A stretch of 64,000 bases of DNA. Source: Eledone cirrhosa. Lineage: Eukaryota. The notes below the pieces were generated by a model, which searched no databases, was not told the DNA's origin, and saw only the letters and a list, made by a program, of their open reading frames with translations. Positions 12,001 to 63,935 of this stretch are shown here, piece by piece. The stretch covers positions 22,754,001 to 22,818,000 of the forward strand of contig OZ024744.1 in the NCBI GenBank assembly GCA_964016885.1, written 5' to 3'. A program made the translations under genes and the position numbers. Position 1 is the first letter of the stretch, and the number at the start of each line of letters is the position of its first letter.

Positions 12001-15000
12001 CCATCGACTAACCTAACGGAAACTGCCTACCCTCGACAATCCTAACAGAGACTGCCCACCTTCGACAAACCTAAGAGTGACTGCGCACTTTTGAGAAACC
12101 TAACAGAGACTGCCCACCTTCGGCAAATCTAACAAAGACTGCCCACCTTCGACAAACCTAACAGAGACTACCCACCTTCGACAAGTCTAATAGAGACTGC
12201 CCACCGTCAACAAGCCTAAGGGAGACTGCTCACCTTCGACAAACCTAACAGAGTGTACCCATATACGACAAGTCTAACAGAGACTGCCCACCTTCGACAA
12301 ACATAAAAGAGGCTACCGACCTTCGACAAACCTAACAGAAACTACCCACCCTCGACAAACCTAACAGAGACTGCCCACCATGGAGAAAACTAACAGTGAC
12401 GGCCCACTTTCGACAAACCTAACAGAGACTGCCTGCCTTCGACAAGTCTAACAGAGACTAGCCACCTTCGACAAGTCTAACAGAGACTGCCCACCTTCAA
12501 CAAGTCTAACAGAGACTGCCCACCTTCGACAAACCTAACAGAGACTGCGCACCTTCGACTAACCTAACATAGACTGCCCACCTTCGACAAGCCTAACAGA
12601 GACTGCCCAGCTTCGACAAGCCTAACAGAGACTGCCCACCTTCGAGAAACCTAACAGAGACTACCGTCCGTCGACAAACCTAACAGAGACTGCCTGCCTT
12701 CGACAAACCTAACAGAGACTGCCCACCTTCGACAAACCTAACAGTGACTGCCCACTTTCGACAAACCTAACGGAGACTGCCCACCTTAGACAAGTGTAAC
12801 AGAGACTGCCCACCTTCGAAAAGCCTAACAGAGACTGCTCACCTTCGACAAACCTAACGGAGACTGCCCACCTTAGACAAGTGTAACAGAGACTGCCCAC
12901 CTTCGACACGTCTAACAGAGACTGCCTACCTTCGACAAGTCTAACATAGACTGCCCACTTTCGACAAACCTAACAGAGACTGCCCACCCTTGACAAACCT
13001 AACAGAGACTGACCACCTTCGACAAGTCTAATAGAGACTGCCCATCTTCGACAAACCTAACGGAAACTGCCTACCCTCGACAAACCTAACAGAGACTGCC
13101 CACCTTCGGCAAACCAAACAAAGACTGCCGACCTTCGACAAACCTAACAGAGACTACCCACCTTCGACAAGTCTAATAGAAACTGCCCACCGTCAACAAG
13201 CCTTACGGAGACTGCCCACCTTCGACAAACCTAACAGAGCGTACCCATATTCGACAAGTCTAACAGAGACTGCCTACCTTCGACAACCCTGACAGAGGCT
13301 ACCGACCTTCGACAAACCTAACAGAAACTACCCACCCTCGACAAACCTAACAGAGACTGCCCACCTTGCACAAAACTAACAGTGACTGCCCACTTTCGAC
13401 AAACCTAACAGAGACGGCCTGCCTTCGACAAGTCTAACAGAGACTAGCCACCTTCGACAAGTCTAACAGAGACTGCCCACCTTCAACAAGTCTAACAGAG
13501 ACTGCCCACCTTCGACAAACCAAACAGAGTCTGCCCACCTTCGACAAGTCTAAGAGAGACTGCCCAACTTCGACAATCCTAACAGAGACTCCCCACCTTT
13601 GACAAGCCTAACAGAGATTCCCCACCTTCGACAAGCCTAACAGAGACTGCCCACATTCGAGAAACCTAACAGAGCCTGCCCACCTTTGACTAACCTAACA
13701 GAGTCTCCCACCTTCGACAAGCCTAACAGAGACTGCCCACCTTCGACAAGCCTAACAGAGACTGCCCACCTTCGACAAGTCTAACATGGACTGCCCACTT
13801 TCGACAAACCTAACAGTGACTGCCCACTCTCGACAACCTAGCAGTGACTGCCCACTTTCCACAAACCTAACAGAGACTACCGACCTTCGACAAACCTAAC
13901 AGAGGCTACCGACCTTCGACAAACCTAACAGAGACTGCCCACCCTCGACAAACCTAACAGAGACTGCCCACCTTCGACAAACCTAACAGTGACTGCCCAC
14001 TTTCGACAAGCCTAACAGAGACTGCCTACCTTAGACAAGTCTAAGAGAGACGGCCCACCTTCGAAAATCCTAACAGAGACTGCTCACCTTCGACAAACCT
14101 AACGGAGACTGCCCACTTTCGACAAGTGTAACAGAGACTGCCCACCTTCGACAAGTCTAACATGGACTGCCCACTTTCGACAAACCTAACAGTGACTGCC
14201 CACTCTCGACAACCTAACAGTGACTGCCCACTTTCCACAAACCTAACAGAGACTACCGACCTTCGACAAACCTAACAGAGGCTACCGACCTTCGACAAAC
14301 CTAACAGAGACTGCCCACCCTCGACAAACCTAACAGAGACTGCCCACCTTCGACAAACCTAACAGTGACTGCCCACTTTCGACAAGCCTAACAGAGACTG
14401 CCTACCTTAGACAAGTCTAAGAGAGACGGCCCACCTTCGAAAAGCCTAACAGAGACTGCTCACCTTCGACAAACCTAACGGAGACTGCCCACCTTAGACA
14501 AGTGTAACAGAGACTGCCCACCTTCGACAAATCTAACAGAGACTGCCTACCTTCGACAAGTCTAACATAGACCGCCCACTTTCGACAAACCTAACAGAGA
14601 CTGCACACCCTTGACAAACCTAACAGAGACTGACCACCTTCGACAAGTCTAATAGAGACTGCCCATCTTCGACAAACCTAACAGAGGCTACCGACCATCG
14701 ACAAACCTAACGGAAACTGCCTACCCTCGACTAACCTAACAGAGACTGCCCACCTTCGACAAGCCTAACAGAGACTGCCCACCTTCGACAAACCTAACAC
14801 TGACTGCCCACTTTCGACAAGTTGAATAGAGACTGCCCACCGTCAACAAGCCTAACGGAGACTGCCCATCTTCGACAAACCTAACAGAGTGTACCCATAT
14901 TCGACAAGTCTAACAGAGACTGCCCACACTCGACAAACCTAAAAGAGGCTACCGACCTTCGACAAACCTAACAGAAACTACCCACCCTCGACAAACCTAA

Positions 15001-17516
15001 CAGAGACTGCCCACCATGGACAAACCTAACAGAGACTGCCCACCATGGACAAAACTAACAGTGACTGCCCACTTTCGACAAACCTAACAGAGACTGTCCA
15101 CCTTCGACAAACCTAACAGAGACTGTCCACCTTCGACAAGCCAAACAGAGATTCCCCACCTTCGACAAGCCTAACAGAGACTGCCCACATTCGAGAAACC
15201 TAACAGAGCCTGCCCACCTTTGACTAACCTAACAGAGAATCCCACCTTCGACAAGCCTAACAGAGACTGCCCACCTTCGACAAGCCTAACAGAGACTGCC
15301 CACCTTCGACAAACCTAACAGAGACTGTCCACCTTCGACAAGCCTAACAGAGACTGTCCACCTTCGACAAACCTAACAGAGACTGCCGACCTTCGACAAA
15401 CCTAACAGAGACTGTCCACCTTCGACAAGCCTAACAGAGACTGTCCACCTTCGACAAACCTAACAGAGACTGCCCACCTTCGACAAACCTAACAGAGACT
15501 GCCCACCTTCGACAAACCTAACAGAGACTGTCCACCTTCGACAAGCCTAACAGAGACTGTCCACCTTCGACAAGCCTAACAGAGACTGCCCACCTTCGAC
15601 AAACCTAACAGAGACTGCCCACTTTCGATAAACGTAACATAGACTGCCCATCTTCGACAAGCCTAACAAAGATGGCCCCCGTTCGACAAGCCTAACAGAG
15701 ACTGCCTACCTTAGACAAGTCTACGAGAGACGGCCCACCTTCGAAAATCCTAACAGAGACTGCTCACCTTAGACAAACCTAACGGAGACTGCCCACTTTC
15801 GACAAGTGTAACAGAGACTGCCCACCTTCGACAAGTCTAACAGAGACTTCCTACCTTCGACAAATCTAACATGGACTGCCTACTTTCGACAAACCTAACA
15901 GTGACTGCCCACTCTCGACAACCTAACAGTGACTGCCCACTATCCACAAACCTAACAGAGACTACCGACCTTCGACAAACCTAACAGAGGCTACCGACCT
16001 TCGACAAACCTAACAGAGACAGCCCACCCTCGACAAACCTAACAGAGACTGCCCACCTTCGACAAACCTAACAGTGACTGCCCAATTTCGACAAGCCTAA
16101 CAGAGACTGCCTACCTTAGACAAGTCTAAGAGAGACGGCCCACCTTCGAAAAGCCTAACAGAGACTGCTCACCTTCGACAAACCTAACGGAGTCTGCCCA
16201 CCTTAGACAAGTGTAACAGAGACTGCCCACCTTCGACAAGTCTAACAGAGACTGCCTACCTTCGACAAGTCTAACATGGACTGCCCACTTTCGACAAACC
16301 TAACAGAGACTGCCCACCCTTGACAAACCTAACAGAGACTGACCACCTTCGACAAGTCTAATAGAGACTGCCAATCTTCGACAAACCTAACAGAGGCTAC
16401 CGACCATCGACAAACCTAACGTTAACTGCCTACCCTCGACAAACCTAACAGAGACTGCCCACCTTCTACAAACCTAACACTGACTGCCCACTTTCGAGAA
16501 ACCTAACAGAGACTGCCCACCTTCAGCAAACCTAACAAAGACTGCCGACCTTCGACAAACCTAACAGAGACTACCCACCTTCGACAAGTCTAATAGAGAC
16601 TGCCCACCGTTAACAAGCCTAAGGGAGACTGCTCACCTTCGACAAACCTAACAGAGTGTACCCATATTCGACAAGTCTAACAGAGACTGCCCACCTTCGA
16701 CAAACATAAAAGAGGCTACCGACCTTCGACAAACCTAACAGAAACTACCCACCCTCGACAAACCTAACAGAGACTGCCCACCATGGAGAAAACTAACAGT
16801 GACTGCCCACCTTCGAGAAACCTAACAGAAACTACCGTCCGTCGACAAACCAAACAGAGACTAGCCACCTTCGACAAGTCTAAGAGAGACTGCCCACCTT
16901 CGACAATCCTAACAGAGACTGCCCACCTTCGACAAGCCTAACAGAGATTCCCCACCTTCGAAAAGCCTAACAGAGACTGCCCACCTTCGACAAACCTAAC
17001 AGAGCCTGCCCACCTTTGACTAACCTAACAGAGACTCCCACCTTCGACAAGCCTAACAGAGACTGCCCACCTTCAACAAGCCTAACAGAGACTGGCCACA
17101 TTCGACAAACCTAACAGAGACTGTCCACCTTCGACAAGCTTAACAGAGACTGTCCACCTTCGACAAGCCTAACAGAGACTGCCCACCTTCGACAAACCTA
17201 ACAGAGACTGTCCACCTTCGACAAGCCTAACAGAGACTGCCCACCTTCGACAAACCTAACAGAGACTGTCCACCTTCGACAAGCCTAACAGAGACTGTCC
17301 ACCTTCGACAAGCCTAACAGAGACTGCCCACCTATGACAAGCCTAACAGAGACTGCCCACCTTCGACAAGTCTAACAGAGACTACCCACCTATGACAAGC
17401 CTAACAGAGACTGCCCACCTTCGACAAGTCTAACAGAGACTACCCACCTTCGACAAGCCTAACAGAGACTGCCCACCTTCGACAACTCTAACAGAGACTA
17501 CCCGCCTTTTCAAACT
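1..17516. repeat. 29-bp satellite array (consensus AACAGAGACTGCCCACCTTCGACAAACCT), roughly 600 monomers, open at the window's left edge
   Basis: Continuous head-to-tail monomers. The spurious ORFs inside show a 29-aa (87 bp = 3x29) period. The array decays at CCCGCCTTTTCAAACTC (~17516). Confidence 0.97.
5150..15401. repeat. Near-identical 5,127-bp tandem duplication within the satellite (about 5150-10276 and 10277-15401)
   Basis: Identical ORFs at 7582/12709 and 8914/14041 (offset 5127). Rare variants such as CCTAGAAG, CTGCACACC and GTTGAATAG recur at the same offset. Confidence 0.92.
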
Positions 17517-24393: not shown

Positions 24394-27053
24394 ATCTGTT
24401 TCAAAGCATGCCTCAACAGTATTAAATGCTTTATTAAACAGTGCCATTCTAGCAACATACTTTTGCTGGGAGACTTTAATCTACCCTGTGTCGATTGGCT
24501 TACAAACAGTTTGAAACCAGGCACCCCAACCTCAACCACTGACAAAGTGGCTGTCGAGTTACTTCTTGACTTCATGAATGAGTTTTTCTTGTCCCAACTT
24601 GTCCTTGCACCAACGAGGCATCAGAAAAACATTTTGACCTAGTGTTTAGTAACCACACTAACACTATACATAATATTACAGTGGAAAAAACCCTTCTCTC
24701 AGACCATGACATGGTTCTTTGTAACCTGAGATTCCACCAGCCGAAAGCTAATCCCAGGGTCCTCTCTCCAGCCCACCCATTTGATAACATGGATCTCTAC
24801 AATGCCAACTGGGATGCAATTATGAACGAACTATCACATGTCAACTGGTCTTTTACACACGCACACACTTCCACCAACATCAAAACATCTTGGCAGATCT
24901 TTGTAGACACTGTCACAAATATATGTACACACCCCACCAAAACCTGGGGAAAAAACCAAGTGCAGTATCGCCCAAAGCAGAAAAACAATTATCAGAAAAG
25001 TAAAAAGAACAAACAAAAAAATTAACACACTAAAATACTGCCAACAGCAACACACACATTCAATGGCTATCACCCTGCTTGAGTCAAAAAATATAACCAG
25101 CAGCAATGCATGATGACCATCATCAATAACCAGAGAATAGCCGAAGAGAGGTGGGCCATTGAGAAAATCAAACTCAACCCCAAAGTGTTCTTTTCATTCG
25201 CTAAAAACACAAGGTCACCGTCTCCACTGTTGGCCCCCTAGTTGATGAAAGTGGCCCACTCCAGGACAATGCCAAAAACCAAGGGCGAGATACTGCAGAA
25301 ACAATACTGCTCTGTTTTCAGCAACCCTGATATGGCCGATCAGGGCCGTATCAGTGATATTAACCCCCAACACACTATATCGGACATAACGTTTGGCGCC
25401 CCTCATGTCTTAGCGGCAATAAACGAAATTAAACACAATTCAGCAGTAGGCCCCGACAGGGTCCCTGCTTGTGTCCTTAAGGTGTGTCGATACCAACTTG
25501 CAGCTCCTCTTGCTAATCTGTGGAGGAACTCACTGGACACTGGCTATATTCCTGAAAACTTTCTGTCCCAGTCCGTTGTCCCAGTCTTTAAAAAGGGAAA
25601 TAAGTCCCTTGCAGTAAGTCCGATCCCACTCACCTCTCATATTATCAAGGTATTTGAGAGGGTGGTGAGATCACGAATAACCCACTTTCTTGAAAGCAAC
25701 GGCCTGCTGAACTCCAACCAACATGGGTTCCGTAATGGAAGGGACTGCCTAACGCAGCTCCTGCATCACTTTGACGATGTTTTGAGAGCCTTGGGAGAGG
25801 GCTCCAACACTGATGTCATCTACCTTGACTTCAGCAAGGCCTTCGACAGGTTTGATCATAAGATTCTACTGAAAAAACTATTCAATGTTGGTGTCTCTGG
25901 AAAGTTACTACAGTGGATCAAATGTTTCCTGACAGGCAGAACCCAGCATGTTGTAGTCGAAGGAGTAGAATCAAGCCCTGCCAAAGTCAGCAGTAGCGTC
26001 CCACGAGGCACTGTGTTGGGCCCACTTCTTTTCATCATCTACATGACATTACTGACATCATCAAGCACAGCAACATTAGAATCTTCGCAGATGATTCCAA
26101 GCTCCAAAGGGTCATCAATGAGGTGGGTGACCGGACTTGCCTTCAGTCAGACCTACTGGCTGTTATCCAATGGGCAGAGATGAATAATATGCTGTTGAAT
26201 GAAGATAAATTTGAACTAATCCACTTTGGAAAAAAGGATGCTCTGAACTACCGTACTCACTTCCTTCGGGTGAAACTCTGGTGGCTTCCAATAACATCGG
26301 AGACTTGGGAGTAATTGTGGACAACAAAATAAGCTAGCCCACTCATATAAACAGCAAAGTTGATATGGCCCGCAGAATGTGTTCCTGCATTCTTAGAACT
26401 TTCCAGTCGAGAGATATCCACACTGTTGTCCTTCTCTTCACCACTTTTGCCCGACCCCACCTTGAATACTGTTGTCCACTGTGGTCACCCCACACGAAAC
26501 AAAGTATCATGAAAGTTGAAGCACCCCAAAGGTCAATTATAAAAAAGATAGTTGGCATGACAGGCCTTGGCTATTGGGGTCGATTAGAAAAGCTCAACCT
26601 TTATTCTCTCCAACGTCGCCAAGAGCGCTACATTATCTGTATGATGTGGAAAATATTCCATCAGCTTAGCCCAAATGATGTTGGCATCACCTTTAATGTA
26701 CACCCAAGGCTTGGGCCCCGTGCTATCCGCCCACAACAAAAATCCCACTCGCATGGCATAACAACAATACAGCACAATTATTTCACCTCAATTGGCCCCA
26801 CTCTCTTTAACATTACACCGAAACACATCAAAGCAGAGACAGACCCCATCAAGTTCAAGAAGTCTTTGGATAAATTCCTTCAAGAAATCCTGGATAAGCC
26901 TCCTACACCCGGATATGCCCCCGTAAACAATAACTCTCTGCTCGATTGGGCCATGGTGCCCAAACACTGACTTGTAAGACTTCGCCAGGTGGTGCTATTA
27001 AGTTAGACATGGCCTGGGCCAATACTGGCCGAACCCTATCAAAGTTATCAAAG

Positions 27054-31804: not shown

Positions 31805-32178
31805 TAGAATTGGAGCTCTGAAATAGCAATATATATATGGATGTATATATAATGTATTTTGCAATACACTTTATGCTTAATTAAAAGCATTTTGAAGACC
31901 GTATGCTATTGTTTTAGCGTAGTGACAAATTCACTTACTTTAATCTCAGCAAACAGGGGAGATAAGCCGACAAGGCCTTGTTTCGCTTTTGTTGAAGCTT
32001 ATCAAGGCTAACTACTCCGACCTGTCTACCGAGATTACTGATGTTATATTCTTATAGAATTCTAGTAAATAATCAGGAGCTGATTATACAGAGCGGTTGT
32101 TGGTCAGGCACAAATTAAAAATTAGAATTGGAGCTCTGAAATAGCAATATATATATGGATGTATATATAATGTATTTT
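31805..32178 (-). mobile_element. Hammerhead-bearing non-coding element (retrozyme/Penelope pLTR-like), 318-bp unit plus 56-bp repeat
   Basis: Direct repeat 31805-31860 / 32123-32178. Homologous to 60617-60933 and 61703-61775. Confidence 0.75.
31963..32010 (-). ncRNA. Type I hammerhead ribozyme with mutated core
   Basis: AGCC-TTGATAA-GCTT caacaa AAGC-GAAA-CAAGGCCTTG-TC-GGCT. Stems intact, but core CUGANGA is altered to UUGAUAA. Confidence 0.7.

Positions 32179-32180: not shown

Positions 32181-32250
<70 letters not shown>
32180..32250. repeat. (TAGA)n microsatellite
   Basis: Direct reading. Confidence 0.95.
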
Positions 32251-32465
32251 TGTAAGCTATCGCCGTATTTTGACTATAGAAATTAAAGAAATTATTTAGC
32301 CTGGTAGTGGGGTTAAGAACCCTCGGAGAAATGGAAAAAGATGAGTATTGACGTACATGTACGTCAATACTCATCTTTTTCCATTTCTCCGAGGGTTCTT
32401 AACCCCACTACCAGGCTAAATAATTTCTTTAATTTCTATAGTCAAAATACGGCGATAGCTTACAT
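32250..32465. repeat. 216-bp perfect spacerless palindrome
   Basis: Centre GTACA|TGTAC at 32357/32358. Identical ORFs on both strands (32180..32374 - and 32341..32526 +). Confidence 0.95.
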
Positions 32466-38995: not shown

Positions 38996-41900
38996 TCACC
39001 TTTCATAAAACTGGCTGGAGTGGAGCACCTCTCTCTCCATCCTGATCCTTCTCCCGAAATGGTATCGGAAAAAAAGGACCAGTTGTTGGTCGGAAAGAAA
39101 GGTGTCCGACCTCAGCCTTTTTAGACGCGTCCACCATATAACCTCTTTTACCATGGCTATTACACAGAGGAAGACCGCCTCTCCTTCATTTTTGAAGGGG
39201 GGAGGCGGCTTGATCGTTACAATAGACTCGGTGGTCAACCTAATTGGTCCCACCCGTGACAGCAGTTGTTCGACATAGCCCCACAGATCGGTAACGCCCG
39301 GGCAGTGCACCAATGCGTGCGCGATGGTTTCCTCGTCGCGCACGCATTTGGGACAAATCTTTTTCGAGGAGTCCCTACCCGGGCGCCCGTGTCTGTAGAG
39401 CTTATCCCGAACGGGCAGAGCCCCTCGGTAGCACTGCCAGGCCAAGGACTTCTGGAAGTTGTCCATAGGTCCCGGGCCGAAAGTCCTACCGAATAGACTG
39501 GCCAGTTCGTCCTCCATGCCTAGGATTTCTCCGAGGGCGTCGTCGCACCTGCTAACCACCAGCCCTCTATAGAATGACGAGGTGGAGTCTCAACCGATAA
39601 CCGGGTCCGCCTGCCAGAGAGCCGTGAGCGCCTGGGCATACTCGGTGTGCCAGTCGCCCAGTTTTATCGGTCTTTGCTTCACCCAGGACTGAAGCTCGGT
39701 GAGCGAGACGAGCTTCGGGAAGGCTCGCCTCACAAACGGGGCCCACACCGGTTGACCGGTGAGGAATACCTGGAGGTGCCTTAGCCTCAATGCGTGTTTA
39801 CGCATTTTTAGCCACGGCATCCCCAGCCCTCCTTTCAAAGGGTGTTGACAGCAGATGGATCTCCTCACCAGAGGAGAGCTCTTCTTCCAAAGGAAATAAA
39901 AGAGAGCGCGCTCCATTTTGGCGAGGATCTCACCCGGGCAAGGCACGACAGTCAAGCGGTAATAGATGACGGACGCTATGTAAGCGTTCGCCACCTCCGC
40001 CCGACCTTTCAGGGATAGTTTGTACTCGGCCCACTTCTGGGTCAGTGCAAACACCCTGTTCGTCACCTCACCCCACTTTTTCTCCACCTGGAGGTCCGGC
40101 CGAACCAGACCCCAAGCAACTTCACCGGGCCCTCCGTCCACCGTCCGACGATACCGTCGGACGACATCGCTTTGCCCCTCCACTCGCCGAGTTGCAAAGC
40201 GACTGACTTGTCCCGGTTCAGTTTAGCCCCTGTCAACCTTTCGTACTCCTCCAGTGAGGTGCCGATTGCCTCGATTTACGCGGTGGTCGACACCATTACT
40301 GTTACGTCATCGGTGAAGGCCGACACCGCTTTGCGCAATCCCGGTTCCAAAGGGATGCCCTGCAACAACTCCAACTTCCGCAGTAGTGGCTCGAGAGCCA
40401 ATACATACAGAAGGGAGGAGAGAGGGCACCCCTGTCGGAGGGAGCGGGTGATTTCGAAAGGCTCCGAGAGGTAGCCGTTCACCTTGACTCTAGAGCAGAT
40501 GCGGCTGCTGTGCATGGCAGTGATCCAGCCCCTGAAAACGGGTCCGAACCAAGCCGCCGCGAGCACCGCATCCAGGTAACCATGGTCCACCCTATCGAAC
40601 GCTTTAGACTGATCTAAATTTATCAGGGCCCCACCAAAGCCGGGTTCGTTCCCAACCCTCTCTATGATGTATCGCATGAGGTGGGGGTTGTCGTGGATGG
40701 ACCTGGACGGGATAGCGCATGTCTGCGCATCTCCCACCAGGCCCCCCACGACAAGCGCCAACCTCTTCGCTAACACCTTGGCCAAAATCTTTAACTCTGC
40801 ATTTAGCAGAGTTATGGGCCTAAAATTACTAATGTCATCCCCCTTGTTCTCGTCTTTCCTCACTAGAGAGACTACGCCCTTGGTCACAGAACAGGGAATT
40901 CTCCCGTTCTGTTGCCAGTTGCAGTAGACCGCCTCGAGGAGATCGGGAACAAGTCCGGCATATTAATATATAGTTCGCAGGGCAGACCATCGAGCCCTGG
41001 AGATTTGCGTTTGCCGCATAGGCTCAGCACGTCCCCTATTTCAGCAGCTGAGATCGGCCCGTCGAAGGACCTCGCCTCCTTGTCCGAAAGACGCGGCAGG
41101 TCGTCGAGGTATGGACCGAAATCCACATCTCCACCCCCCCCCCCCCCCCCGCCCCTCCCGAACAATCGGGCAAAGTGCCTTTGAAAGGTCCCGCGCATTC
41201 GCTTAGGTTCAAGGATCACCCGTCCATCCTGGTCTCACAAAGACCGGATAGTGGATCTAATCCCACTTTTGGCTTCTGTCACGCGGGCCCAGCTAACAGC
41301 TTTGGTCCCCTCGTTTCCCAGAGCACGTATTTTGCTTCGGACAACGCAGCCTTCGTGTTTCGCGTCGAAGAACTGGCTCAAGGCCGTTCTCGACGCTTGC
41401 ACTCTGGCCACGTTGCCGCTTCTCATTGCCTCTTCAACATTAACTACCAACTCCCTTTCCTTCCTATTTCTATCTGAGGCTAACTCCTTACTAACTCCTA
41501 TTGAAACTACTCTAATCTCTCTTTTTAGAGAGCCCCACCACCTGTTGTTGACGATGGCGCCCGTCAACCGCTCCTTAACTAAGGTTCTAATCTGGTCCCT
41601 GTAAGCTCTACTTGCCGGTAAGGACAAGTTGAGCTTCCAGTAACCGGGTCCCTGCCTATACGTTCCATCAAGGTAGGCTACGCAGGTCACTAACTTGTGG
41701 CCTGAATAGCCCACCATGAGCATTTCTGGACAACTTAAAAAGTCCCTATCCTTAATTCTAACTAAGAACCTATCTAGGTACGATCTAGATTGACCGCTAT
41801 TATTTGACCAAGTCCAGGTTGGCACAGTCGGAAAATCTAGTCAATATCTATCGGCCAGGTCAAATCGGCCGATTAACCCCTTGAGGCTATTACACCCCCC

Positions 41901-42377
41901 TCTATAAGGACATGCCTCTACATAGTCCCAACGTGCATCTAGGATACCATTCCAGCCCCCCACTAAAAGCAAGGAGCGGGACGTCCCTAGAAAAGTCTCC
42001 AGACGATGGAAGAAGTCCGACTGCATTGCCCCAAAAGGGGCGTACATAGCGACAAGCCTAAAAGCTTCGCCTTCACCGCTGCCAAGGTCCAGAACCACGA
42101 GTCGACCCTCCGGGTCCAAGTGTACTGTCTGTGTAGCGAGACCCAGATGTTTTTGCAGCAGAACGACAACCCCGCCCCCACCTCCGGGCTGACAGAGAGA
42201 TGCGTGCATCTCAAAGTCATCAAAGGTGGGGGCTAGTTGTCGCACGCTATTGATCCGGGCCTCGCAAATAACCATCACATTTAAACATTGTGACCTGAGG
42301 TCATTTAGAAGTTTAGCTTGCTTCCAAGGTGAACCCAGGCCACGCGCATTTAGACAACTTACTCTTAACACAGCCAT
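38996..42377 (-). pseudogene. L1/Tx1 ORF2 (AP endonuclease, reverse transcriptase, CCHC), disrupted
   Basis: SCLNARGL, SYLDRFLV, KSPGLDGLP, NFRPITLLNAELKILAK, LDQSKAFDRVDH, LRQGCPLS, FTDD, CPKC..HALVHC. Split over six ORFs. Confidence 0.92.
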
Positions 42378-42400
42378 GTTGATGGTAAAGAAAGAGGCAC

Positions 42401-44175
42401 TTACCTCTCTGCGTCCCGGGGTCCGGGCTGCTCAGTTTCCATGGGGCTGGTGGAGGGGTTGTTGGGTGGGGTGGTGGTTTGTGGTGGTGTGGGGGTATTA
42501 GTGTGTGGAGGGGTTGGGGTGTTTGGAATTGTGTGGGTGTTTGAGGAGGGGAGGGGAAAACCTTTCAGGGGGACGCGGTTGAGTGGCCTGGTGCAGGGTG
42601 GCCCCACGTCCTCAGGGTAAATGTTTTTCAATGTTTTGAAAATGTCAATTGGGACTTTCACCATTTTCAGGTTAGGGAGCCCCATTGCCATTGCAAAATT
42701 CGGCCCTTCGGTACAAACCGAAGGATTGTTGTCTATTTTTTCTGTTAAGTTTTTATTGTTTTTGTTTATGTATGTGTAGAGTTTTTGTGTTGTTGTGTTT
42801 GTTTTTGCTTGTTCTTGAGTGAGCTTGCGTTTTGTTGTATGTGTTGTGTTGTCAGGTGGGGTTATTTTTGTTAGTGTGGTGTGTGTACGTTTTTTCCATT
42901 TGACATTTTGGAAGGGAGCCCCCTCGTCTTCCGAGGATATGAGCTCCTCTTCCGTATTGGAGGGGAGGGGTACATTGCCAGGTTGTGTATGCACTGCGTG
43001 TGTTTTTGTATTTGTGTTCTGTGGGGAGGGGCTGGGTGGGACCGTGTTTTGGGTTGTTTTCTTGAGCTGTTGTTGTTGTGGTGGTGGTGCTGGGGGTGGT
43101 GGTGTTGTTTTTTGTTGTCGTTGTGGTGGTGATGGTAGTGTATATTGTTGTTTTTGTGGTGGTGGTGCTGGTTGTTTTTGTTGTTGTTGTGGTGTTTGTA
43201 GCAGTTTTTTTTGTTGTTAGTAGAGGGCAGGCCGTCCTCAGGTGACCTCTGCCAGCGCAGTGGTAACATGGGTCTCTTGCCTTCCACCGTAATATTGATA
43301 AAGGTTCGCCCATGCAGTAGGACTCGGTCGGGTATTCTGGCGATTCTCTCAGGTGTCATCTGTAAGAGAACATCCAGACTTTTCCCCCCGAACAGTCCAC
43401 TGGTGGACTCCCCTGCTGATATAAGGATGTCCTTTTCTAGGTCCGTAAATCCTGTCAGGACGGACCAGATGTTTACTTCTGGCGTTGAGCTCCACATTCT
43501 TAGTCTCTAAGTTCTTCTTCCTTTATACGTGGGGAAGAAGGTGTATTGTGGTGACACTATAGGTGCCACCGAGCATTTTTGAGCCAGCATTTCGTCCTTC
43601 ATTCGGACCATAATGCTGGCATACAGCTTTCCTCTTTCAATAAAGAGTATGTCTTCTTTTATGTCTTTCAGAACCAGCACAATTTGACTTTCTGTCAATT
43701 GAGCTGGCTTTCTTGTTGTGTTGGATATCGTCCTGAAGGTTATGGTATTCCTATATACCTGTTGACGAACTTCTACTGGGGAGTTGATCGTAAAAGACCA
43801 TCCTCCCCAAAAGATATGTATTTTCTGGCATTTAGCAAGTGTTGCTTAGCGTTAGTAATTAATGTCTATGGGCTTGTACTCGATAGCTTTCCTGACCGTT
43901 TGGGCAAAAGAAACTTTGCTGTCTTTGTTGCTTTCGCTTCGTTCATTGTTGCTTGTTGTTGCAATGTTGTTGGTTTCATCTTTTGTGGTGTTTATTTTCT
44001 TGTTATTTTTCTCTTCAAAATTTAGGTTTTCACTTGAATTAATATTCTTTTTTTCATTCGAGAGGAGGGGCTGTTCAACAGTTTGAATTGTTGTTCCCCC
44101 TTTCTCGCTTTTTTTGGTAGGCGTGGCGTTAGCTTCCAATATGGCTTCCTCGTTTTGAACGATATCGATGAACAT
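42401..44175 (-). pseudogene. L1/Tx1 ORF1 (gag-like, zinc knuckle), frameshifted
   Basis: Starts MFIDIVQNEE. Contains SFAQTV and CYHCAGRGHLRTAC, and a Thr/Asn-rich linker. Stops 23 bp before the ORF2 ATG. Confidence 0.8.
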
Positions 44176-52290: not shown

Positions 52291-52509
52291 TCGTTTGGCT
52301 TTTCATCGTTTGATGCTGCTGTTGTTGTTGATATTGGTGTTGTTCGTTTTTATGCTGTTGTTGTTCTTATAGGTGTAGGTGTCTATAAGCTCTGACCCGG
52401 TCACTAAACACGAGGGTCAGTCTATTTAAACAATGTTGTCCTCTTCCTTCTACATTTGTGGGAAAGGACGTTATAGACATTCAGGTAGAGTTGTGCCTTC
52501 TCGTCTTTC

Positions 52510-53605
52510 TTTTCACCATATTTAAAACAAAGAACATAAGAATACTATTCACCTCTAAAGCACAAGGGTCACTCGATGAGGCCTATGTCAAAGCGAATGT
52601 TGACTACATCCAAGAGGAGATCAATAAGATTCCAAGCCTGCATGCAGCGAAACCACTTGCTGCAGTCTGGAAAACAATAAACACACTTTCTGGGAGAAAG
52701 TCAATGCCCTCTATCCGACCCAAAGGTGGTTCCGCTGAAAAGCACAAAGCCAACTGGCTCCACCACTGTAAGAAACTCCTTGGAGAACTCCCACAGAACA
52801 GTGGCGGCCAGCCACTTCCTCTGTATCAAATATCCAGCAACCTGGATATCAATACCAATCCATTTACGATCGATGAACTCAAAACGACGCTCAAAGAAAT
52901 CTCCAACAACAAATCTCCAGGTCTTGACAATTTACCAACTCTGCTGTGGAAAGATCCAACTTTTCATGACTTCCTTCTTGAGTTCTACAACCACACTATC
53001 ATACATCACTCGCCTCCCCAGCCTGGAATGTCCCCAAAAAGTGTAGCCAATTATAGAGGTATAACTTTTATGCTAATTGTGACAAAAGTCTACAAGCTTC
53101 TGTTAAACAGGATAGTCCCTGCCCTTGATCCTTTACTTCCCAAGAACCAGAATAGATTTAGAAGAGGCAGCTCAACAACTGTTCAAATTCTCTCTATTCG
53201 CCGCATACTGGAAGAAATGAAAAAACCTCAACAGAGAGATCAAGATCTGTTTTGTCGACTTTCGCAAGGCGTTTGATTCTATCAGTAGATATCTTATGTT
53301 TAAAATACTTAAACTCTACGGAATAACTGAAATTGTTGAAGCAATTGAAGGTCTGTACAAAAACACCACTGCCACCGTTGTATAACCTGATGGCGAGACT
53401 GAATCCTTTGAAGTAAAAGCAGGAGTTCCACAAGGTGACACACTTGCCCCTTTTCTCTTCATGGTTGTTCTGGACTATGTCCTGCATATCTCGCTAGACA
53501 ACATGAAGGAGAAGTGACCCCTTCTGAAACGCCACTAGAGCAGTTGCAACCCTGCACAATACCTGACTGACCTAGATTTCGCCGATGATCTTGCCCTGAT
53601 TTCTT
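52510..53605 (+). pseudogene. RTE/RTE-X-like LINE reverse transcriptase fragment
   Basis: KSPGLDNLP, ANYRGIT, KNQNRFRRGSST..QILSIRRILEE, FVDFRKAFDS, GVPQGDTLAPFLF, DLDFADDLAL. Frameshifted. Confidence 0.85.
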
Positions 53606-54060: not shown

Positions 54061-57000
54061 ACACATTCTTCAGGTATCGGCGTTTTTCGCTAACAGCTCT
54101 CAATTCTTGTTTGAGGGTGATCAGCTTATATTGGAGAGTTCTGGTTCTACTGTTACCAAACATCGTCTCTATTTTATTTTTCACTCTTTGTTGGTGAGGA
54201 GTGAGGTTTTTTGTGTTTGTTTGCATGTAAGGAGCATTGTCACATATCCTATGTTTTTTCGTAGGTCAGCACTCTTTTTTTCTATTTTAGTTATATATGA
54301 TGGTATTTTTGGTGGTGTTTTGTTCTTGTTAATATCTCTGCTATCACCAAGATAATGCTTCACTGTCGTTGCTAAGGCATATAAACAGGCGTTGATTTGC
54401 CAAAATGTTGGGGTTTTTATCCGTCGTAAATATTCATCCCCTATTTCGTCAATAACACGTAGTATTTCATTATTTGGTTTTTTATTCACCATTGTCATTT
54501 TAACACGTTCAGCAAGAGAGATATTTATACATGAGTTAATTTCTCTCTGGAAGATTTCGTTGAGGGAAATTTTCAATTGTTTATACTTTTGATTATCATT
54601 ATCGATAGTATTTTCCACAACAGTCGAGATAGACTCGGATGGTATACGTGGTGTCACATTTATTCGATTATTATTATTTCTTCGATTATTATTATTATCG
54701 ATAGTGTTTCCCCCAGCATTCGAGGTAGACTTAGATGATACACGTGGTGTCAAGTTTCTTACAGGCATAGTTGTTTCATGGTGCTGTTCGACCTGGCTGC
54801 TAGGAAGTCTAGTAGCATGGCGACCTGTAACACGTGTTATTGATAACATGTTTGTTGTGGGGGACTTATAATTAATCATATTTATCTTATTTTTACGTTA
54901 AAAAAATGTCGCTTTTTGGCGTAATTGTTTCGCTGTGAAATAATTTAGCTCTGGGTGCATTTCGTCCCAGTGTAGCTTCATTCTATTCATATAGCCAATG
55001 GAGGGATTGTTTTTTGCCATTTTATAACAATTAAATAAATCATTATTAAGTTCGCAACTCCAAGAGAAATGCGATTTATAATTTCGGTTTCTTCTGTAGC
55101 TACAACTGAATAAAGTTTGATTACCTTCCTTGTTATTTGTCTTCGATACTTCCTTAATTTTGTTGTTGATGTTGTGTTCAGCCATGCTGTTTGTAGCAAA
55201 TCCTTGTAAAATGAATTATGTATTTAGTCGGATATCTCTACGAATCGAATAAAAGGTGTCTTCAGAAGATATAGTTAGAAGAATAACCAGTTATTCAACC
55301 TGGCTGTAGTTGTGGCTTTACTGTCGGAGATAGTATTCATCTTAAATTTAATAAATAGTCTCCCACGACAAAATATGCGACTGATGGCGTTGACTGCCTT
55401 TGAGGCCCCATCCCAGAAATACATAGATTCCTTTTGGAGAAATATATGGGGTGAAAAGAAGAATTTCAACCAAGATGCAGTGTGGCTAAAAGAAATCCGA
55501 AAGAACTATTGCTCCTACAGTACAACAAAAACATACAAAATAAGTGAGGGTACTCTTGAGACTGTGATAGGAAAACTCCAAGATAAGAAAACACAAGGAA
55601 GAGACATGATTGTCGGCTATTGGTACAAAAAACTGATATTCTATCGGAGGTATCTTACTGACCTCTACCAACAAGTTCTTAAGGGAGATACACTTATACC
55701 AGAATGGTTGACATTAGCACAAACGTTACTGGTCCCCAAGAACAAAGACACCCACTTGGCAAAAAACTACCGACCCATTGCATGCCAGAACCTGATGTAT
55801 AAGATGTATACAGCCTGCCTGAACCTATTCCTCCAAGATCACTGTTAAAGTAATAACATCATCACAGATGAACAAGCAGCTGGAAAGAAAGTGGTTTGGG
55901 GATGTGCTGAACAACTCCTAATCAACAAAACTGCGATGTCGGAGGTGCGACAACTTAGGAGGAATATGGCTACAGTCTGGCTGGACTACAGGAAAGATTT
56001 CGAGTCTGTTCCCCACTCTTGGATGATAGAGGCCCTCCAACTTGCTAAAGTCTCAGACATTATTGTCAGAGCCATAGAGAGGCTGTCTTCTTGGGCTACT
56101 ATCCTAAGGTTAAAGACAGAGAGGGCGGGGGGACTCTATTTTCACTGATAAAATAAAATATTGCAGGGTATAATTCAGGGGGACAGTTTCTCTGTGATAC
56201 TGTTCATCTTGTCATTAAACCCCTTGTCCTTTCTGCTCAAGAAATGTGAGGGATGCATCATTGGCTCACAGGAGGACAGAAATACGAACCTAACCCATAA
56301 CTTCTTTGTGGACGATCTGAAACTCTATGCCAAGAACATGGATGGGATGAAGAAAAATCTTGACCTGGTTACAACGTTCTCAAAGGATATAGGAATGGAG
56401 TTTGGCCAAGATAAATGCTCATACATGACTGTAAAGCGGGGAAAAACAACAACCTAATCTAGCAACATTGTCATCAATGGCCTAACTGTTTCACCGATAT
56501 CTGATGAGGACTGCTACAGATACCTGGGGATAGATGAGAACATATCCTATAATGGTATCTGTAATAAAAAACGCGTAACCAGGGAATACTACACCCGATT
56601 AAGAAAGATCTGGTCATCGGAACTCTCTGCGCAGAACAAAACAGTGGCTCACAATGTGTTTGCTGTGCCTTCCTAACACCAACGCTTGGAATACTCAATT
56701 GGATGATAGACGAAATCCGAGCAGTTAATGTTGGAACTCTAAATATACTGAATAATACCGGAAACTTCCATATCAACAGTGACATAGACTGCCTTTACTT
56801 GACACGTAAGCAGGGAGGCAGAGGCCTAACATCAGTCCAGACAACATTTGAATGTCGCATCATATCTCTCCGAAAACATCTACGAACCTCGAAGCGTAGG
56901 AGCCCGTTTCTCGAGCAAGTCTATCTGCATGAAACAGATAAGATCATGAGAGTTGCGAAGAAACTCCTCGAGAGATATTCCCTGTGTGATAATCAAAAAC

Positions 57001-58092
57001 TCACACCCAGGGATGTCACTCAGCAGTATCGCAGTGAATCTATGGATGAAAAACTGCATGCTTATCAGCAAAAAATCATGCATGGATATGTTGCCAGGAA
57101 GCTCCAGAGTGAGAGTAATATAGATAAGGAAAGTAGTCTATCTTGGACCAACAACCGCTATATTTGCTCGCACTTTGAAGGATACGCTTTTGCAATCCAG
57201 GAACAGGAGATTAGCACGAAATACCTGATTCACAAAAGAGATAGGGATGCCGGCAAGACACCTAGATGTGATAACAAGTGCAGACTCTGCAGAACTAACA
57301 TCGAGGATATCAACCATGTCATCAGCAGCTGTCCAAAGATGTCATCGCGGTACTATCTACCTATGAGGCATGATGTAGTGACCAAAACACTGTACAATGC
57401 AGTTCGTAAAAAAGATAGCCCCGATAATAGACACATTAAAAGGTACAACAATGTGGAAGACATCCATGTACATAATATGAAAGAGTACTGGTGGAATGTT
57501 CCAGTAAAAAACCCCAATAAAATGCAGGCATAACAGACCAGATATTATGATATGAGACAGGGAGAGAAAACATTCACAGTAGTGGAAATTAGTTGCCCAG
57601 CAGATGCCAATATAATATCAAAGATTAGTGAAAAGGAAAATATTTATGCAGAACTGATGAGAAACCTGCAGATACTCCACCCTGATTAGACCTTCAGATT
57701 TATGCCTGTAATTATTGGGGCACTGGGATATGTTAGTAACTGCCTCAGTACAAATCTTAAGGAACAGAAAGAACAAAACTAGTTAGGAAACTACAAGTAC
57801 AATCCATTAATGGAACAGTAAAAATATGTAAAGCATTCCAAAAATGTTGCATCTAATAACTGCATATATACACATGTACAGATACAAAGCATATACACAT
57901 GCACACATACAACTCAAAACATCCACATCCACACATACAATAACATCCATATCTACACATGCATACATACATAATCTACCTAGTTGATGTGTAAATTCCA
58001 ATGAGAGAGTCTTGTGTCTATGTTAGAAACCGACTCTCTCTCTATTGGTAAAACTTTGTGAAATTATAAAACCAGAAGAACATACATACATA
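54061..58092 (+). mobile_element. R4/Dong-like LINE (RT, CCHC, restriction-like endonuclease) with an inverted 5' segment (about 54061-55395 on the minus strand)
   Basis: Plus strand: NYRPIAC, WLDYRKDFESVPH, GIIQGDS, FVDDLKLY, CRLC..HVISSC..RHD, NRPDI..VEISCP. Minus strand carries the N-terminal W..ELN..CY..GYMNRM..W..P domain. Confidence 0.85.
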
Positions 58093-60039: not shown

Positions 60040-60100
60040 TATTTTATCTGAAGAGGGCGTACCAAAGTTTTGTTACCCTTGAAATACATATAATAGAATA
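60040..60100 (+). ncRNA. Type I hammerhead ribozyme motif with imperfect stems II and III
   Basis: TATTTTAT-CTGAAGA-GGG..CCC-TT-GAAA-TACATA-TA-ATAGAATA. The element continues to 60240, homologous to 63635-63770. Confidence 0.6.
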
Positions 60101-60353: not shown

Positions 60354-60434
60354 GATAAACAGAAATAACAACACAATCGGTACAGTATATGGAAGGAATA
60401 TATTAGGTTAACGCTTGATATAGCATGAAGAGGG

Positions 60435-60470
60435 TCTTAACGTTTCGGACGCTAGTCCTTCATCGGAAGA
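60435..60470 (-). ncRNA. Minimal Penelope-type hammerhead motif (U4C variant)
   Basis: TCTT-CCGATGA-A-GGAC tagc GTCC-GAAA-CG-TT-AAGA. Confidence 0.6.
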
Positions 60471-60616
60471 AAGAATGAGAAATAAGATAGATTGAGGTGA
60501 CGGTCAGGTTGGAAATGGAAAAAATGTCTGAAACTGGATACCAGCCCGGAGTACACCTGAACTTCCAACAGGAAATCTTTCCTATCATTGAAATTTTCTT
60601 TGCTTCTTATACATAT

Positions 60617-60933
60617 AAATTATGAATGTTGGATTCTTATAGAATTCCAGTAATAATTAGTTCCTGATTATTACTGGAATTCTATAAGAATCCAACATTC
60701 ATAATTTCCAACAAACAAGGGGAATGCTAAGCTCTGAGGAATACCAACAGTATGAAACAGAGATCTGTCAGCTTATCTCCCTTTGTTTGTTGAAAAAAGA
60801 AGTAAGTGACATAGTCACTACTTTAAAATAGCCCAAGGTCTGCAAAATGCTTTTAATTAAGCATACAGTGTATTGCAAAATACACTATATACACATTCAT
60901 ATGTATATCGCTATTTCAGAGCACCAATTCTAA
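60617..60933 (+). mobile_element. Hammerhead-bearing element (same family as 31805-32178) with a 5' fold-back at 60617-60707
   Basis: Shared GAATTCTATAAGAAT, CTTATCTCCC, AAAATGCTTTTAATTAAGCATA and GCTATTTCAGAGC.CCAATTCTA. Confidence 0.78.
60728..60775 (+). ncRNA. Canonical type I hammerhead ribozyme
   Basis: TAAGCT-CTGAGGA-ATAC caaca GTAT-GAAA-CAG agat CTG-TC-AGCTTA. Intact CUGANGA/GAAA/GUC core. Predicted cleavage after C60769. Confidence 0.88.
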
Positions 60934-60950
60934 TATATATATATATATAT

Positions 60951-61605
60951 AGGCTGTTTGTTTGTTTACAAACGAACAAACCGAGCATTATAATAAATGT
61001 TCGGTAAACTGATACGTGCATATATATATGTGTGCCTGTATGTATATATATACATGTTACTGTACGTATGTATACATATATGTATGTACGTATACATACA
61101 TACTTACATTTAAGTAAGTGCCGTACTAAGAGTGAGAAATGAAATTTCGTTTCATTCTATTCCATTTATCGTTTTAGGTGTGCCTGGCCGACTGAACTCA
61201 CTCGATATGCAAATTAGGCTGCTCAGCCGTTAATTTTCATAAGGAAAGTATATACTTTCGGACGTTCAACCATCTGGCAGAAAGGTATACGGTGATGACG
61301 ATAGCTAATAAGCTTGAAACTAGTACATCGTTCCTGTGTCAGTGTTGAACAAAAAGGTGACGTGGTTGCCTAAACACTGTACGGCGTAATTCAGGCTGTT
61401 TGTTTGTTTACAAACGAACAAACCGAGCATTATAATAAATGTTCGGTAAACTGATACGTGCATATATATATGTGTGCCTGTATGTATATATATACATGCT
61501 ACTGTACGTCTGTATACATATATGTATGTACGTATACATACATACTTACATTTAAGTAAGTGCCGTACTAAGAGTGAGAAATGAAATTTCGTTTCATTAT
61601 ATTCC

Positions 61606-61610
<5 letters not shown>
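60951..61610 (+). mobile_element. Non-coding element, 442-bp unit plus 218-bp repeat, hammerhead-bearing, in (TA)n
   Basis: Direct repeat 60951-61168 / 61393-61610. Confidence 0.75.
61290..61330 (+). ncRNA. Minimal hammerhead motif (C3A variant)
   Basis: CGGTG-ATGACGA-TAGCT aata AGCTT-GAAA-CTAG-TA-CATCG, with palindromic stem III. Confidence 0.6.
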
Positions 61611-61704
<94 letters not shown>

Positions 61705-62774
61705 TTAGAATTGGAGCTCTGAAATAGCGATATATATATAAATGTATGTATAGTGTATTTTGCAATACACTGTATATATATATATTAAAATAACAGATTA
61801 AAGTTTTAGCAAAGAATCACTGCTGTCACCCTTAACGGGATATTCTGAAATAAAAAAAAAATCAATCTGAGAACGCAGGAGTAAATATTTCGAAAAACGT
61901 TGCAACCGAAGGAAAACAGGAAGACGATATTTTGGTTCGTGAAGACGTTCCCTGGCAATGAACGAAAAAAACCGAAGATAATACATCGTTATGAGGATCG
62001 GAGAGAAGAATAACACGCCAAGATAAAACCACGTTTCTGGTATAAATGAACTCGTAGACTAATGTTCTATTTAGGAAACCAAATGATTCTCGGCTTCAGA
62101 GTTAAGAATAAAGTAAATAAATTAGTAGAACGAAAATGACAGAGGTTATTAAAATCAATAATAATTAAATATATACAAACACACATCTATATACGTACCT
62201 ACACAGCCATAAGCGAAAACACCCGCCATGCATGCATATACATGCACATACACAAAACACGCGCACACATACATAAACCCGCGCGACACATGTACCAGCA
62301 CACATACGAACGTATACACCAAATGCCCCCTCCCAAACAAAAATATATATGTATGTGTATACATATAATAAACGTATACAAATATACACGCATAAATACG
62401 TATATAACGCACGCACACACACACCTACAGGTAAATACACATGTTCACCAAACGTACGTCAACCAAACACAAAGTACGCATATACACACCTAACATACGT
62501 GCAAACATGCATACACACATACAAACACAAACACAAAATACACATATACACATAACTATACGCACATGTACCGGTATATATAATATAACATATATACCTA
62601 TAACAAATACAAGCGTATATATGTACGAGAAAGTATACGTACCTCCACAAAACATACGGGTAAGATCTACTTACCTATACAAATAAGTAATGGTATAAAC
62701 ATAAAATATACTTAGCTACCACATCGAGAGGTAAATTATCCGCGTATTGTTCGTACTATCCGTTAGGGTATAAT

Positions 62775-63874: not shown

Positions 63875-63935
63875 TTCATTTACCAGTGGTTTCTTGAAGG
63901 CAGATGTTATGTCTGTCTTCAGTCGTCAGAATGAA
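63875..63935 (-). ncRNA. Type I hammerhead ribozyme motif
   Basis: TTCATT-CTGACGA-C-TGAAGACAGA cataaca TCTGCCTTCA-A-GAAA-CCACTGG-TA-AATGAA. Intact core, first stem II pair mismatched. Confidence 0.78.

What the first reader, a model, noticed from the sequence alone, without database searches (positions are those of the whole stretch)
60728..60775. Hammerhead with compensatory covariation between two copies in this window
The homologous copy at 31963-32010 (-) changes all three stems while keeping the pairing: stem I AGCT/AGCT vs AGCC/GGCT, stem II ATAC/GTAT vs GCTT/AAGC, stem III CAGagatCTG vs CAAGGCCTTG. This is internal evidence of selection on RNA structure. The 60728 copy has an intact core and should cleave after GUC (60769). 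The 31963 copy has two core mutations and should not, giving a natural negative control.
Basis: partly seen in the sequence, partly recalled or inferred. Interest (0 to 1): 0.75.

Follow-up and report, generated by a model that had tools for sequence, protein, structure and literature searches.

The report
Hammerhead retrozyme with stepwise compensatory changes
Both copies belong to one abundant 317-base repeat that carries a likely self-cutting RNA motif and is likely moved by Penelope-type jumping genes; the second copy is not a broken control, because its two core changes form a known swapped base pair that is fixed in its own young subfamily.

Summary
The two hammerheads and their compensatory changes are real. 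Both sit in a ~317-nt repeat with at least 2,028 hammerhead-bearing copies and six subfamilies. It has the anatomy of an animal non-LTR retrozyme with Penelope-type insertion ends: (AT)n flanks, inverted arms and a 26-nt tail on one arm. The 'negative control' reading fails. The two core changes at 31963 are the C3-G8 to U3-A8 swap, which is published as active, fixed in three subfamilies and the commoner core in the genome. Genomic intermediates split the A-versus-B difference into single-pair steps, some through G·U wobbles. Pair-keeping is seen in variants shared by several loci (17 of 21) but not in private ones (33 of 133), so selection likely acted on source RNAs and not on these two inserts. 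A second, non-catalytic helix is also kept in all lineages, and folding predicts that the 31963 type cleaves mainly as a dimer. Cleavage, expression, circles and the mobilising element are not shown. This scan has already reported ~316-320-nt U3-A8 retrozymes on other DNA of this genome. Verdict: new member of a known kind.

The parts
60653..60934 (+). Subfamily A retrozyme arm, 282 nt (unit positions 202-317 then 1-168, counted from the predicted cut), 5'-truncated, one hammerhead, ends in (AT)n
60617..60671 (-). Short inverted piece of the same element at the 5' junction; forms the 60617-60707 palindrome
60705..60724 (+). Distal helix I, 5' arm (two private changes against the subfamily, at 60708 and 60724)
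60728..60775 (+). Type I hammerhead, C3-G8 core: helix I 60728-33/60770-75, CTGAGGA 60734-40, helix II 60741-53, GAAA 60754-57, helix III 60758-67, predicted cut after C60769
   Evidence: cleavage is predicted, not shown
60777..60796 (+). Distal helix I, 3' arm
60909..60934 (+). 26-nt tail between the two fixed 3' ends (unit positions ~142 and ~168)
31805..32178 (-). Subfamily B retrozyme arm, about 1.2 units, one hammerhead, ends in (AT)n
31963..32010 (-). Type I hammerhead, U3-A8 core (TTGATAA 32005-31999), perfectly palindromic helix III, predicted cut after C31969; core and helices I-III match the subfamily B majority
61702..61775 (-). Third piece of the family: 3' fragment without hammerhead (unit positions 97-168)

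Best explanation
Both motifs are type I hammerheads inside copies of one ~317-nt non-coding repeat, likely a non-LTR retrozyme that Penelope-like element (PLE) proteins copy into (AT)n sites, and both cores are predicted to be catalytically competent. Shown: the repeat, its head-to-tail units, six subfamilies, compensatory changes in helices I-III and in the 3-8 core pair, two fixed 3' ends 26 nt apart and inverted arms. Inferred: tandem source loci are transcribed; neighbouring hammerheads cut out unit-length RNA, in most subfamilies by pairing their palindromic helix III as a double hammerhead; the unit likely circularises and rests in a fold where the core 5' strand pairs with helix III; a PLE reverse transcriptase primes inside the unit and runs across the cut site. 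Selection therefore acts on the RNA of source copies. The two window copies hold one hammerhead each and are likely dead-end inserts that decay neutrally.
For: Unit lengths between neighbouring cut sites are 311-318 nt in 7 stored dimers. A pattern over helix II and the start of helix III gives 2,028 matches against 1 in the control and leaves out subfamilies C and E. No open reading frame from the window list covers either copy. 3' ends of 197 arms pile up at unit positions 139-143 and 165-169. Of 70 two-armed inserts, 41 have both ends at these sites, and 35 of the 41 have one short and one long end (p 2.4e-6). PMC8557442 (passages) describes inverted 5'-truncated copies, a 30-40-bp tail at one end and microsatellite bias for PLEs. 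The genome holds many GIY-YIG loci (10,596 first-look candidates, 150 scored). One PLE family with a CX4CxxC linker also ends in (AT)n with or without a tail, and 12 of 30 GIY-YIG loci fetched carry their own U3-A8 hammerhead core. Covariation. Stepwise intermediates. Source-level selection: 17 of 21 variants seen in three or more loci keep pairing against 33 of 133 private ones (Fisher p 1.2e-6); private changes hit paired, unpaired and flank sites at 1.36, 1.18 and 1.19%. In real dimers of B (2), D and E the double hammerhead is 12.5-17.5 kcal/mol better than two single ones and within 0-3.4 of the free minimum.
Against: No cleavage, transcript or circle was observed. 5' ends of arms are not enriched at the predicted cut (5 of 197 within 5 nt, 6.8 expected), so the DNA carries no footprint of cleavage. 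No PLE with a 3' end homologous to this repeat was found in the 30 GIY-YIG loci fetched; the only match was an inserted copy at L064. Most copies fetched are solo or 1-2 units, not long arrays. For subfamily A the double hammerhead is not favoured over two single ones (-112.7 vs -115.0). Copies were taken from the top hits of each search, which lowers divergence and favours intact cores. Variants shared by only two or more loci keep pairing in 26 of 52 cases, a weaker signal than the three-locus class.
Confidence: 0.85

Rival explanations
1. One reading: copy A cleaves, and copy B is a dead ribozyme because of two core mutations.
For: Each change alone (C3U or G8A) would break the 3-8 pair (established hammerhead structure, recalled). 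Copy B as a monomer is predicted to misfold (helix I probability 0.06), so it may cleave poorly alone. I could not read the paper on how context limits tolerance to 3-8 exchanges (PMC1986816, not held), so U3-A8 may be slower here.
Against: The two changes restore the pair. U3-A8 is fixed in B, D and F, B has the lowest copy divergence (1.6%), U3-A8 is 66 of 100 listed cores, and helices I-III kept gaining compensatory changes after the swap. Published as active (PMC3088659 passage).
Confidence: 0.06
2. The compensatory changes come from a mutational process (template switching that repairs near-palindromes, or gene conversion), not from selection on RNA function.
For: The hairpin region differs 2-5 times more between subfamilies than the flanks do (A vs B 35% vs 10%). 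These inserts are full of inversions, so template switching is common. Seven of the eight A-vs-B pair changes are double transitions.
Against: Helix II changes one pair at a time along the lineage order, and G·U intermediates exist as real copies. The 3-8 pair is a single tertiary pair that palindrome repair cannot copy. The invariant core letters stay fixed while the stems turn over.
Confidence: 0.08
3. The repeat is only the truncated 3' pseudo-LTR of an autonomous PLE rather than an independent retrozyme.
For: Same insertion geometry as PLEs; PLE ends carry hammerheads; a preprint (10.64898/2026.07.22.740005, abstract, first part and passages) derives retrozymes from pseudo-LTRs.
Against: Among the 30 subfamily A loci, shared sequence stops within about 500 bp of the match, and upstream of the hammerhead lies the unit's own 3' end, a circular permutation. 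Arrays of several units exist (L125, L130). No homology to the PLE ends fetched.
Confidence: 0.08

Closest known systems
Animal non-LTR retrozymes (Cervera and de la Pena 2020, PMC7229834: passages and section 14 read; preprint 10.64898/2026.07.22.740005: part 1 of 5 and passages read)
   Same: Type I hammerhead in a non-coding unit of 150-450 bp, low G+C, head-to-tail repeats, thousands of copies (mussel about 5,000, units 350-390 bp), co-occurring PLEs, dimer-dependent cleavage in some (axolotl).
   Different: Expression, cleavage and circles were shown there and are untested here. Here most copies are dispersed one- or two-armed inserts with fixed ends in (AT)n, and both C3-G8 and U3-A8 cores occur in one family. 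Rfam hammerhead models do not detect it.
U3-A8 hammerheads (Perreault et al. 2011, PMC3088659, passages; Cervera and de la Pena 2014, PMC4209133, passages)
   Same: [quoted passage not shown]
   Different: The Schistosoma U3-A8 motifs are minimal hammerheads of PLEs. Here the swap is in a full-size motif with a 4-5-bp palindromic helix III, and the branch where it arose can be placed.
pDo500 satellite hammerhead of Dolichopoda cave crickets (Martinsen et al. 2010, PMC2837043, abstract only)
   Same: Compensatory stem changes among genomic copies of a hammerhead repeat were used as evidence of selection, the same argument as the finding.
   Different: There the hammerhead region was more conserved than the rest; here the hairpin diverges faster than the flanks while staying paired.
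Penelope-like elements of Neptune/Nematis type (Craig et al. 2021, PMC8557442, passages)
   Same: Inverted 5'-truncated copy at the 5' end, partial tandems, tail on one end, microsatellite targets.
   Different: No coding sequence; tail of 26 nt rather than 30-40; no shared 3' sequence with the PLEs fetched.

Membership tests
Type I hammerhead ribozyme | Core C3U4G5A6NG8A9, G12A13A14, A15.1-U16.1, H17, with a Watson-Crick pair between 3 and 8 | tested here: met
   Copy A CUGAGGA/GAAA/GUC; copy B UUGAUAA with the U3-A8 pair (consensus as given in PMC7151607 passage)
Type I hammerhead ribozyme | Three helices, helix I open-ended, supported by covariation | tested here: met
   14 of 26 pairs change on both sides, 96.8% of 154 cells pair
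Type I hammerhead ribozyme | Tertiary contact between loop II and the helix I internal loop | tested here: inconclusive
   An internal loop starting with an invariant U and a C/A-rich loop II are present in all six rows; the contact itself was not modelled
Type I hammerhead ribozyme | Self-cleavage 3' of H17 | not testable with these tools
   Needs in vitro transcription; 5' ends of inserts are not enriched at the site
Type I hammerhead ribozyme | Match to an Rfam hammerhead model | tested here: not met
   No hammerhead family among 36 matches at E<=10; this is a library limit and not part of the structural definition
Animal non-LTR retrozyme | Non-coding unit of 150-450 bp with one type I hammerhead | tested here: met
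   Units of 311-318 nt; no ORF of 120 aa or more over either copy
Animal non-LTR retrozyme | Head-to-tail repeats with a hammerhead in neighbouring units | tested here: met
   Dimers in A, B, D, E; longer arrays at L125, L130. The two window copies themselves are solo.
Animal non-LTR retrozyme | Expressed as linear and circular unit-length RNA | not testable with these tools
   No RNA run was available to lay
Animal non-LTR retrozyme | Mobilised in trans by PLEs | tested here: inconclusive
   PLE-type ends and abundant PLEs, but no partner identified
Autonomous Penelope-like element | ORF with RT and GIY-YIG endonuclease upstream of the hammerhead | tested here: not met
   no shared coding sequence upstream in the loci examined

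The most novel reading that the evidence does not exclude
The family is a fossil record of a two-state ribozyme switch under double constraint. Besides the catalytic fold, a blocking helix (core 5' strand, positions 2.2-5, against helix III, 15.2-15.6) is kept in every lineage and evolved through G·U intermediates together with the C3-G8 to U3-A8 swap (3:15.4 C-G > U·G > U-A; 2.1:15.5 U-A > U·G > C-G). The unit-length circle would be locked off, and only tandem transcripts would cleave as double hammerheads, so that selection kept both folds.
Probability: 0.35. Interest if true: 0.55.

Novelty: new member of a known kind. Interest (0 to 1): 0.3.

Why it matters
As a class it is known: retrozymes, U3-A8 cores and compensatory changes in hammerhead repeats are all in print. 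Its use is as a ready test set. One genome holds thousands of copies in graded subfamilies that differ by single base pairs, including the core pair, so the effect of each natural step on monomer and dimer cleavage can be measured. The insertion ends also give a genomic handle on how PLE enzymes copy retrozyme RNA. The practical correction matters too: the proposed negative control would mislead.

Tried and rejected
Rfam scans of the window and of 60380-60920 gave only microRNA-type matches to simple repeats and the palindrome. Sequencing runs: no RNA holder listed; three runs of contigs were laid and only confirm that copies of several subfamilies exist. Cleavage footprint in 5' ends: none (5 of 197). 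A first pattern for further subfamilies was too narrow and gave 2 chance hits. RNA editing as the source of stem changes: 10 of 21 variants shared by three or more loci are A>G against 3 C>T, but private changes show no clear strand bias (A>G 14, T>C 8 in paired sites); inconclusive. A general link between position 3 and 15.4 across unrelated hammerhead families in the fetched DNA does not hold: several C3-G8 and U3-A8 families lack the blocking helix. A bootstrap tree of all copies timed out; FastTree and a small IQ-TREE run were used instead, with weak support for the order F-D-B (64-68%). R-scape is not available. Przybilski and Hammann 2007 is not held, so rates for U3-A8 variants were not read. 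Searches for retrozyme or hammerhead with octopus, cephalopod or squid listed no paper on this family, and PMC13282606 has no mention of ribozyme or hammerhead in its main text; supplements were not examined and could list the repeat under another name. A search for double hammerhead with alternative structure and compensatory and one for retrozyme with alternative conformation listed nothing on covariation of a blocking helix, judged from listings only.

Full report
Setting. The window lies in a 3.0-Gb animal genome rich in microsatellites. I did not identify the species; a cephalopod is a guess, also used in titles of earlier notes of this scan.

Observation. Copy A reads AGCT CTGAGGA ATAC CAACA GTAT GAAA CAGAGATCTG TC AGCT. 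Copy B reads AGCC TTGATAA GCTT CAACAA AAGC GAAA CAAGGCCTTG TC GGCT. One pair of helix I, four of helix II and two of helix III change on both sides. Helix I extends about 20 bp further in both copies (z -4.4 and -5.0). Rfam does not detect the motif.

What it sits in. Genome searches with each copy returned many near-identical relatives: 1,867 and 1,421 first-look candidates, of which 40 and 39 were scored. Upstream of the hammerhead lies the element's own 3' end, so the copies are circular permutations of one unit. Stored dimers give units of 311-318 nt. A pattern across helix II gives 2,028 matches against 1 in the control, without subfamilies C and E. From 187 loci I recovered 281 profile hits, 188 near full length and 155 after removing duplicates; 150 fall into six subfamilies and 5 are singletons left out of later counts. 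The de-duplication also dropped identical true copies, mainly of B.

The 'dead' copy. C3>U and G8>A together restore the 3-8 pair. The state is U3-A8 in 29 of 29 B, 29 of 31 D and 3 of 3 F copies, and C3-G8 in 35 of 36 A, 28 of 30 C and 21 of 21 E copies. These are top hits and so biased. The pattern left both positions free: the first 100 listed are 66 U-A, 30 C-G, 2 U-G and 2 C-A (counted by eye). A second pattern that reaches other families gave 155 matches against 22 in the control; its 30 fetched loci are 16 U-A, 12 C-G and 2 U-G. B has the lowest divergence from its majority (1.6%, against 2.4-3.3% for A, C, D, E). PMC3088659 states that this covariation occurs in nature and that such ribozymes were shown active in vitro (passage). 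PMC4209133 reports it in Schistosoma PLE hammerheads (passage). Copy B is therefore a typical member of a young subfamily and not a decayed copy.

Covariation beyond two copies. One real copy per subfamily gives 96.8% of 154 cells paired and 14 of 26 pairs changed on both sides, against 5.0 in shuffles and 0-2 in slid controls. A tree from sequence outside the hairpin groups (E,C) apart from (A,F,D,B) at 96% and places F, D and B together with weak support, so the core swap needs only one event. I fetched 18 of the 100 places listed, chosen as likely intermediates; 16 gave a parsed hammerhead. They fill the gap: helix II goes ATAC/GTAT, GTAC/GTAC, GCAC/GTGC, GCAT/GTGC (G·U), GCAT/ATGC, GCTT/AAGC, and a tree from sequence outside the core motif orders them in that ladder (short alignment, arbitrary root, no support values shown). 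This favours stepwise selection over block repair of palindromes.

Where selection acts. Private changes occur at 1.36% of paired, 1.18% of unpaired, 1.19% of flank and 0.88% of core sites, and 100 of 133 private changes at paired sites break the pair. Variants seen in three or more loci keep the pair in 17 of 21 cases (Fisher p 1.2e-6); those seen in two or more loci keep it in 26 of 52. Inserted copies thus decay about neutrally, and pairing is filtered in the copies that propagate. Each window copy has one hammerhead only, and copy A has two private changes in distal helix I.

A second fold. As monomers, 9 of 9 copies tested prefer a helix between the core 5' strand and the 5' half of helix III (probability 0.65-1.00). 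It pairs in 28 of 28 cells across the six rows, with two pairs changed on both sides, and intermediates keep it through G·U. Helix III is a perfect or near palindrome in the five subfamilies folded. In natural dimers of B, D and E the double hammerhead is 12.5-17.5 kcal/mol better than two single ones; in A it is 2.3 worse, and the single fold lies 1.4 above the minimum. In the circular unit the blocking helix has probability 1.00 for B and 0.32 for A. Limits: both double changes lie on the lineage to B, part of the helix follows from fixed core letters, other families lack it, and these are nearest-neighbour predictions. Dimer-only cleavage as a way to protect circles is described in PMC4209133 (passage) and for axolotl retrozymes in PMC7229834 (passage).

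How it moves. The 3' ends of 197 arms cluster at unit positions 139-143 and 165-169, next to (AT)n. Of 70 two-armed inserts, 41 have both ends at these sites and 35 of those have one of each. PMC8557442 describes this layout for PLEs (passages). The ends lie in the middle of a cleaved unit and arms run through the cut site, which needs a circular or uncleaved multimeric template; the data do not tell these apart. 5' ends are not enriched at the cut (5 of 197). PLEs are abundant. One family with a CX4CxxC linker ends in (AT)n with or without a tail and has its own U3-A8 hammerhead, but it shares no 3' sequence with this repeat, so the partner is unknown. Earlier notes of this scan reported the same two-ended layout in other retrozyme families before I measured it here, and ~316-320-nt U3-A8 families on other DNA.

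Verdict. A real hammerhead in a retrozyme-type repeat, with real and well-resolved covariation. The negative-control claim is wrong. The class, the core variant and the covariation argument are published, so this is a new member of a known kind. The stepwise series and the possible conserved blocking helix are the parts worth an experiment.

Noticed in passing
window 60951-61610 (+), motif at 61295-61330: A different hammerhead repeat family (helix III CTAG) starts right after copy A, with a 442-nt direct repeat (60951, 61393); this copy's core has C3 changed to A. Relatives at L129 and other loci have intact cores.
   Followed up: partly
window 60430-60470 (-): Minimal PLE-type hammerhead (CCGATGA ... 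GAAACGTT, U4 changed to C); a copy with the canonical core is at L175.
   Followed up: no
window 60040-60100 (+): Hammerhead-like motif with long helix II (CTGAAGA ... GAAA TACATA TA), 8-bp helix I.
   Followed up: no
window 63883-63933 (-): Another hammerhead family with a long helix II and helix III CCACTGG; relatives at L027, L053.
   Followed up: no
window 32250-32465: Perfect palindrome with 108-nt arms just upstream of copy B; a related sequence is in L010. Possibly a two-armed insert of another element.
   Followed up: no
window 1-17500: 29-bp satellite, at least 575 units, strongly skewed in composition.
   Followed up: no
L064:2420-2870: A subfamily C insert sits tail-first in the (AT)n end of a GIY-YIG PLE, so both use the same kind of target.
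   Followed up: partly
L060 and L016: Two distant relatives of the family with the same flank layout but different hammerheads, one C3-G8 and one U3-A8.
   Followed up: no
window 24582-26970, 38996-42431, 52389-53276, 54181-57533: Broken LINE-type reverse transcriptase frames, named by eye from the translations; no family search was run.
   Followed up: no
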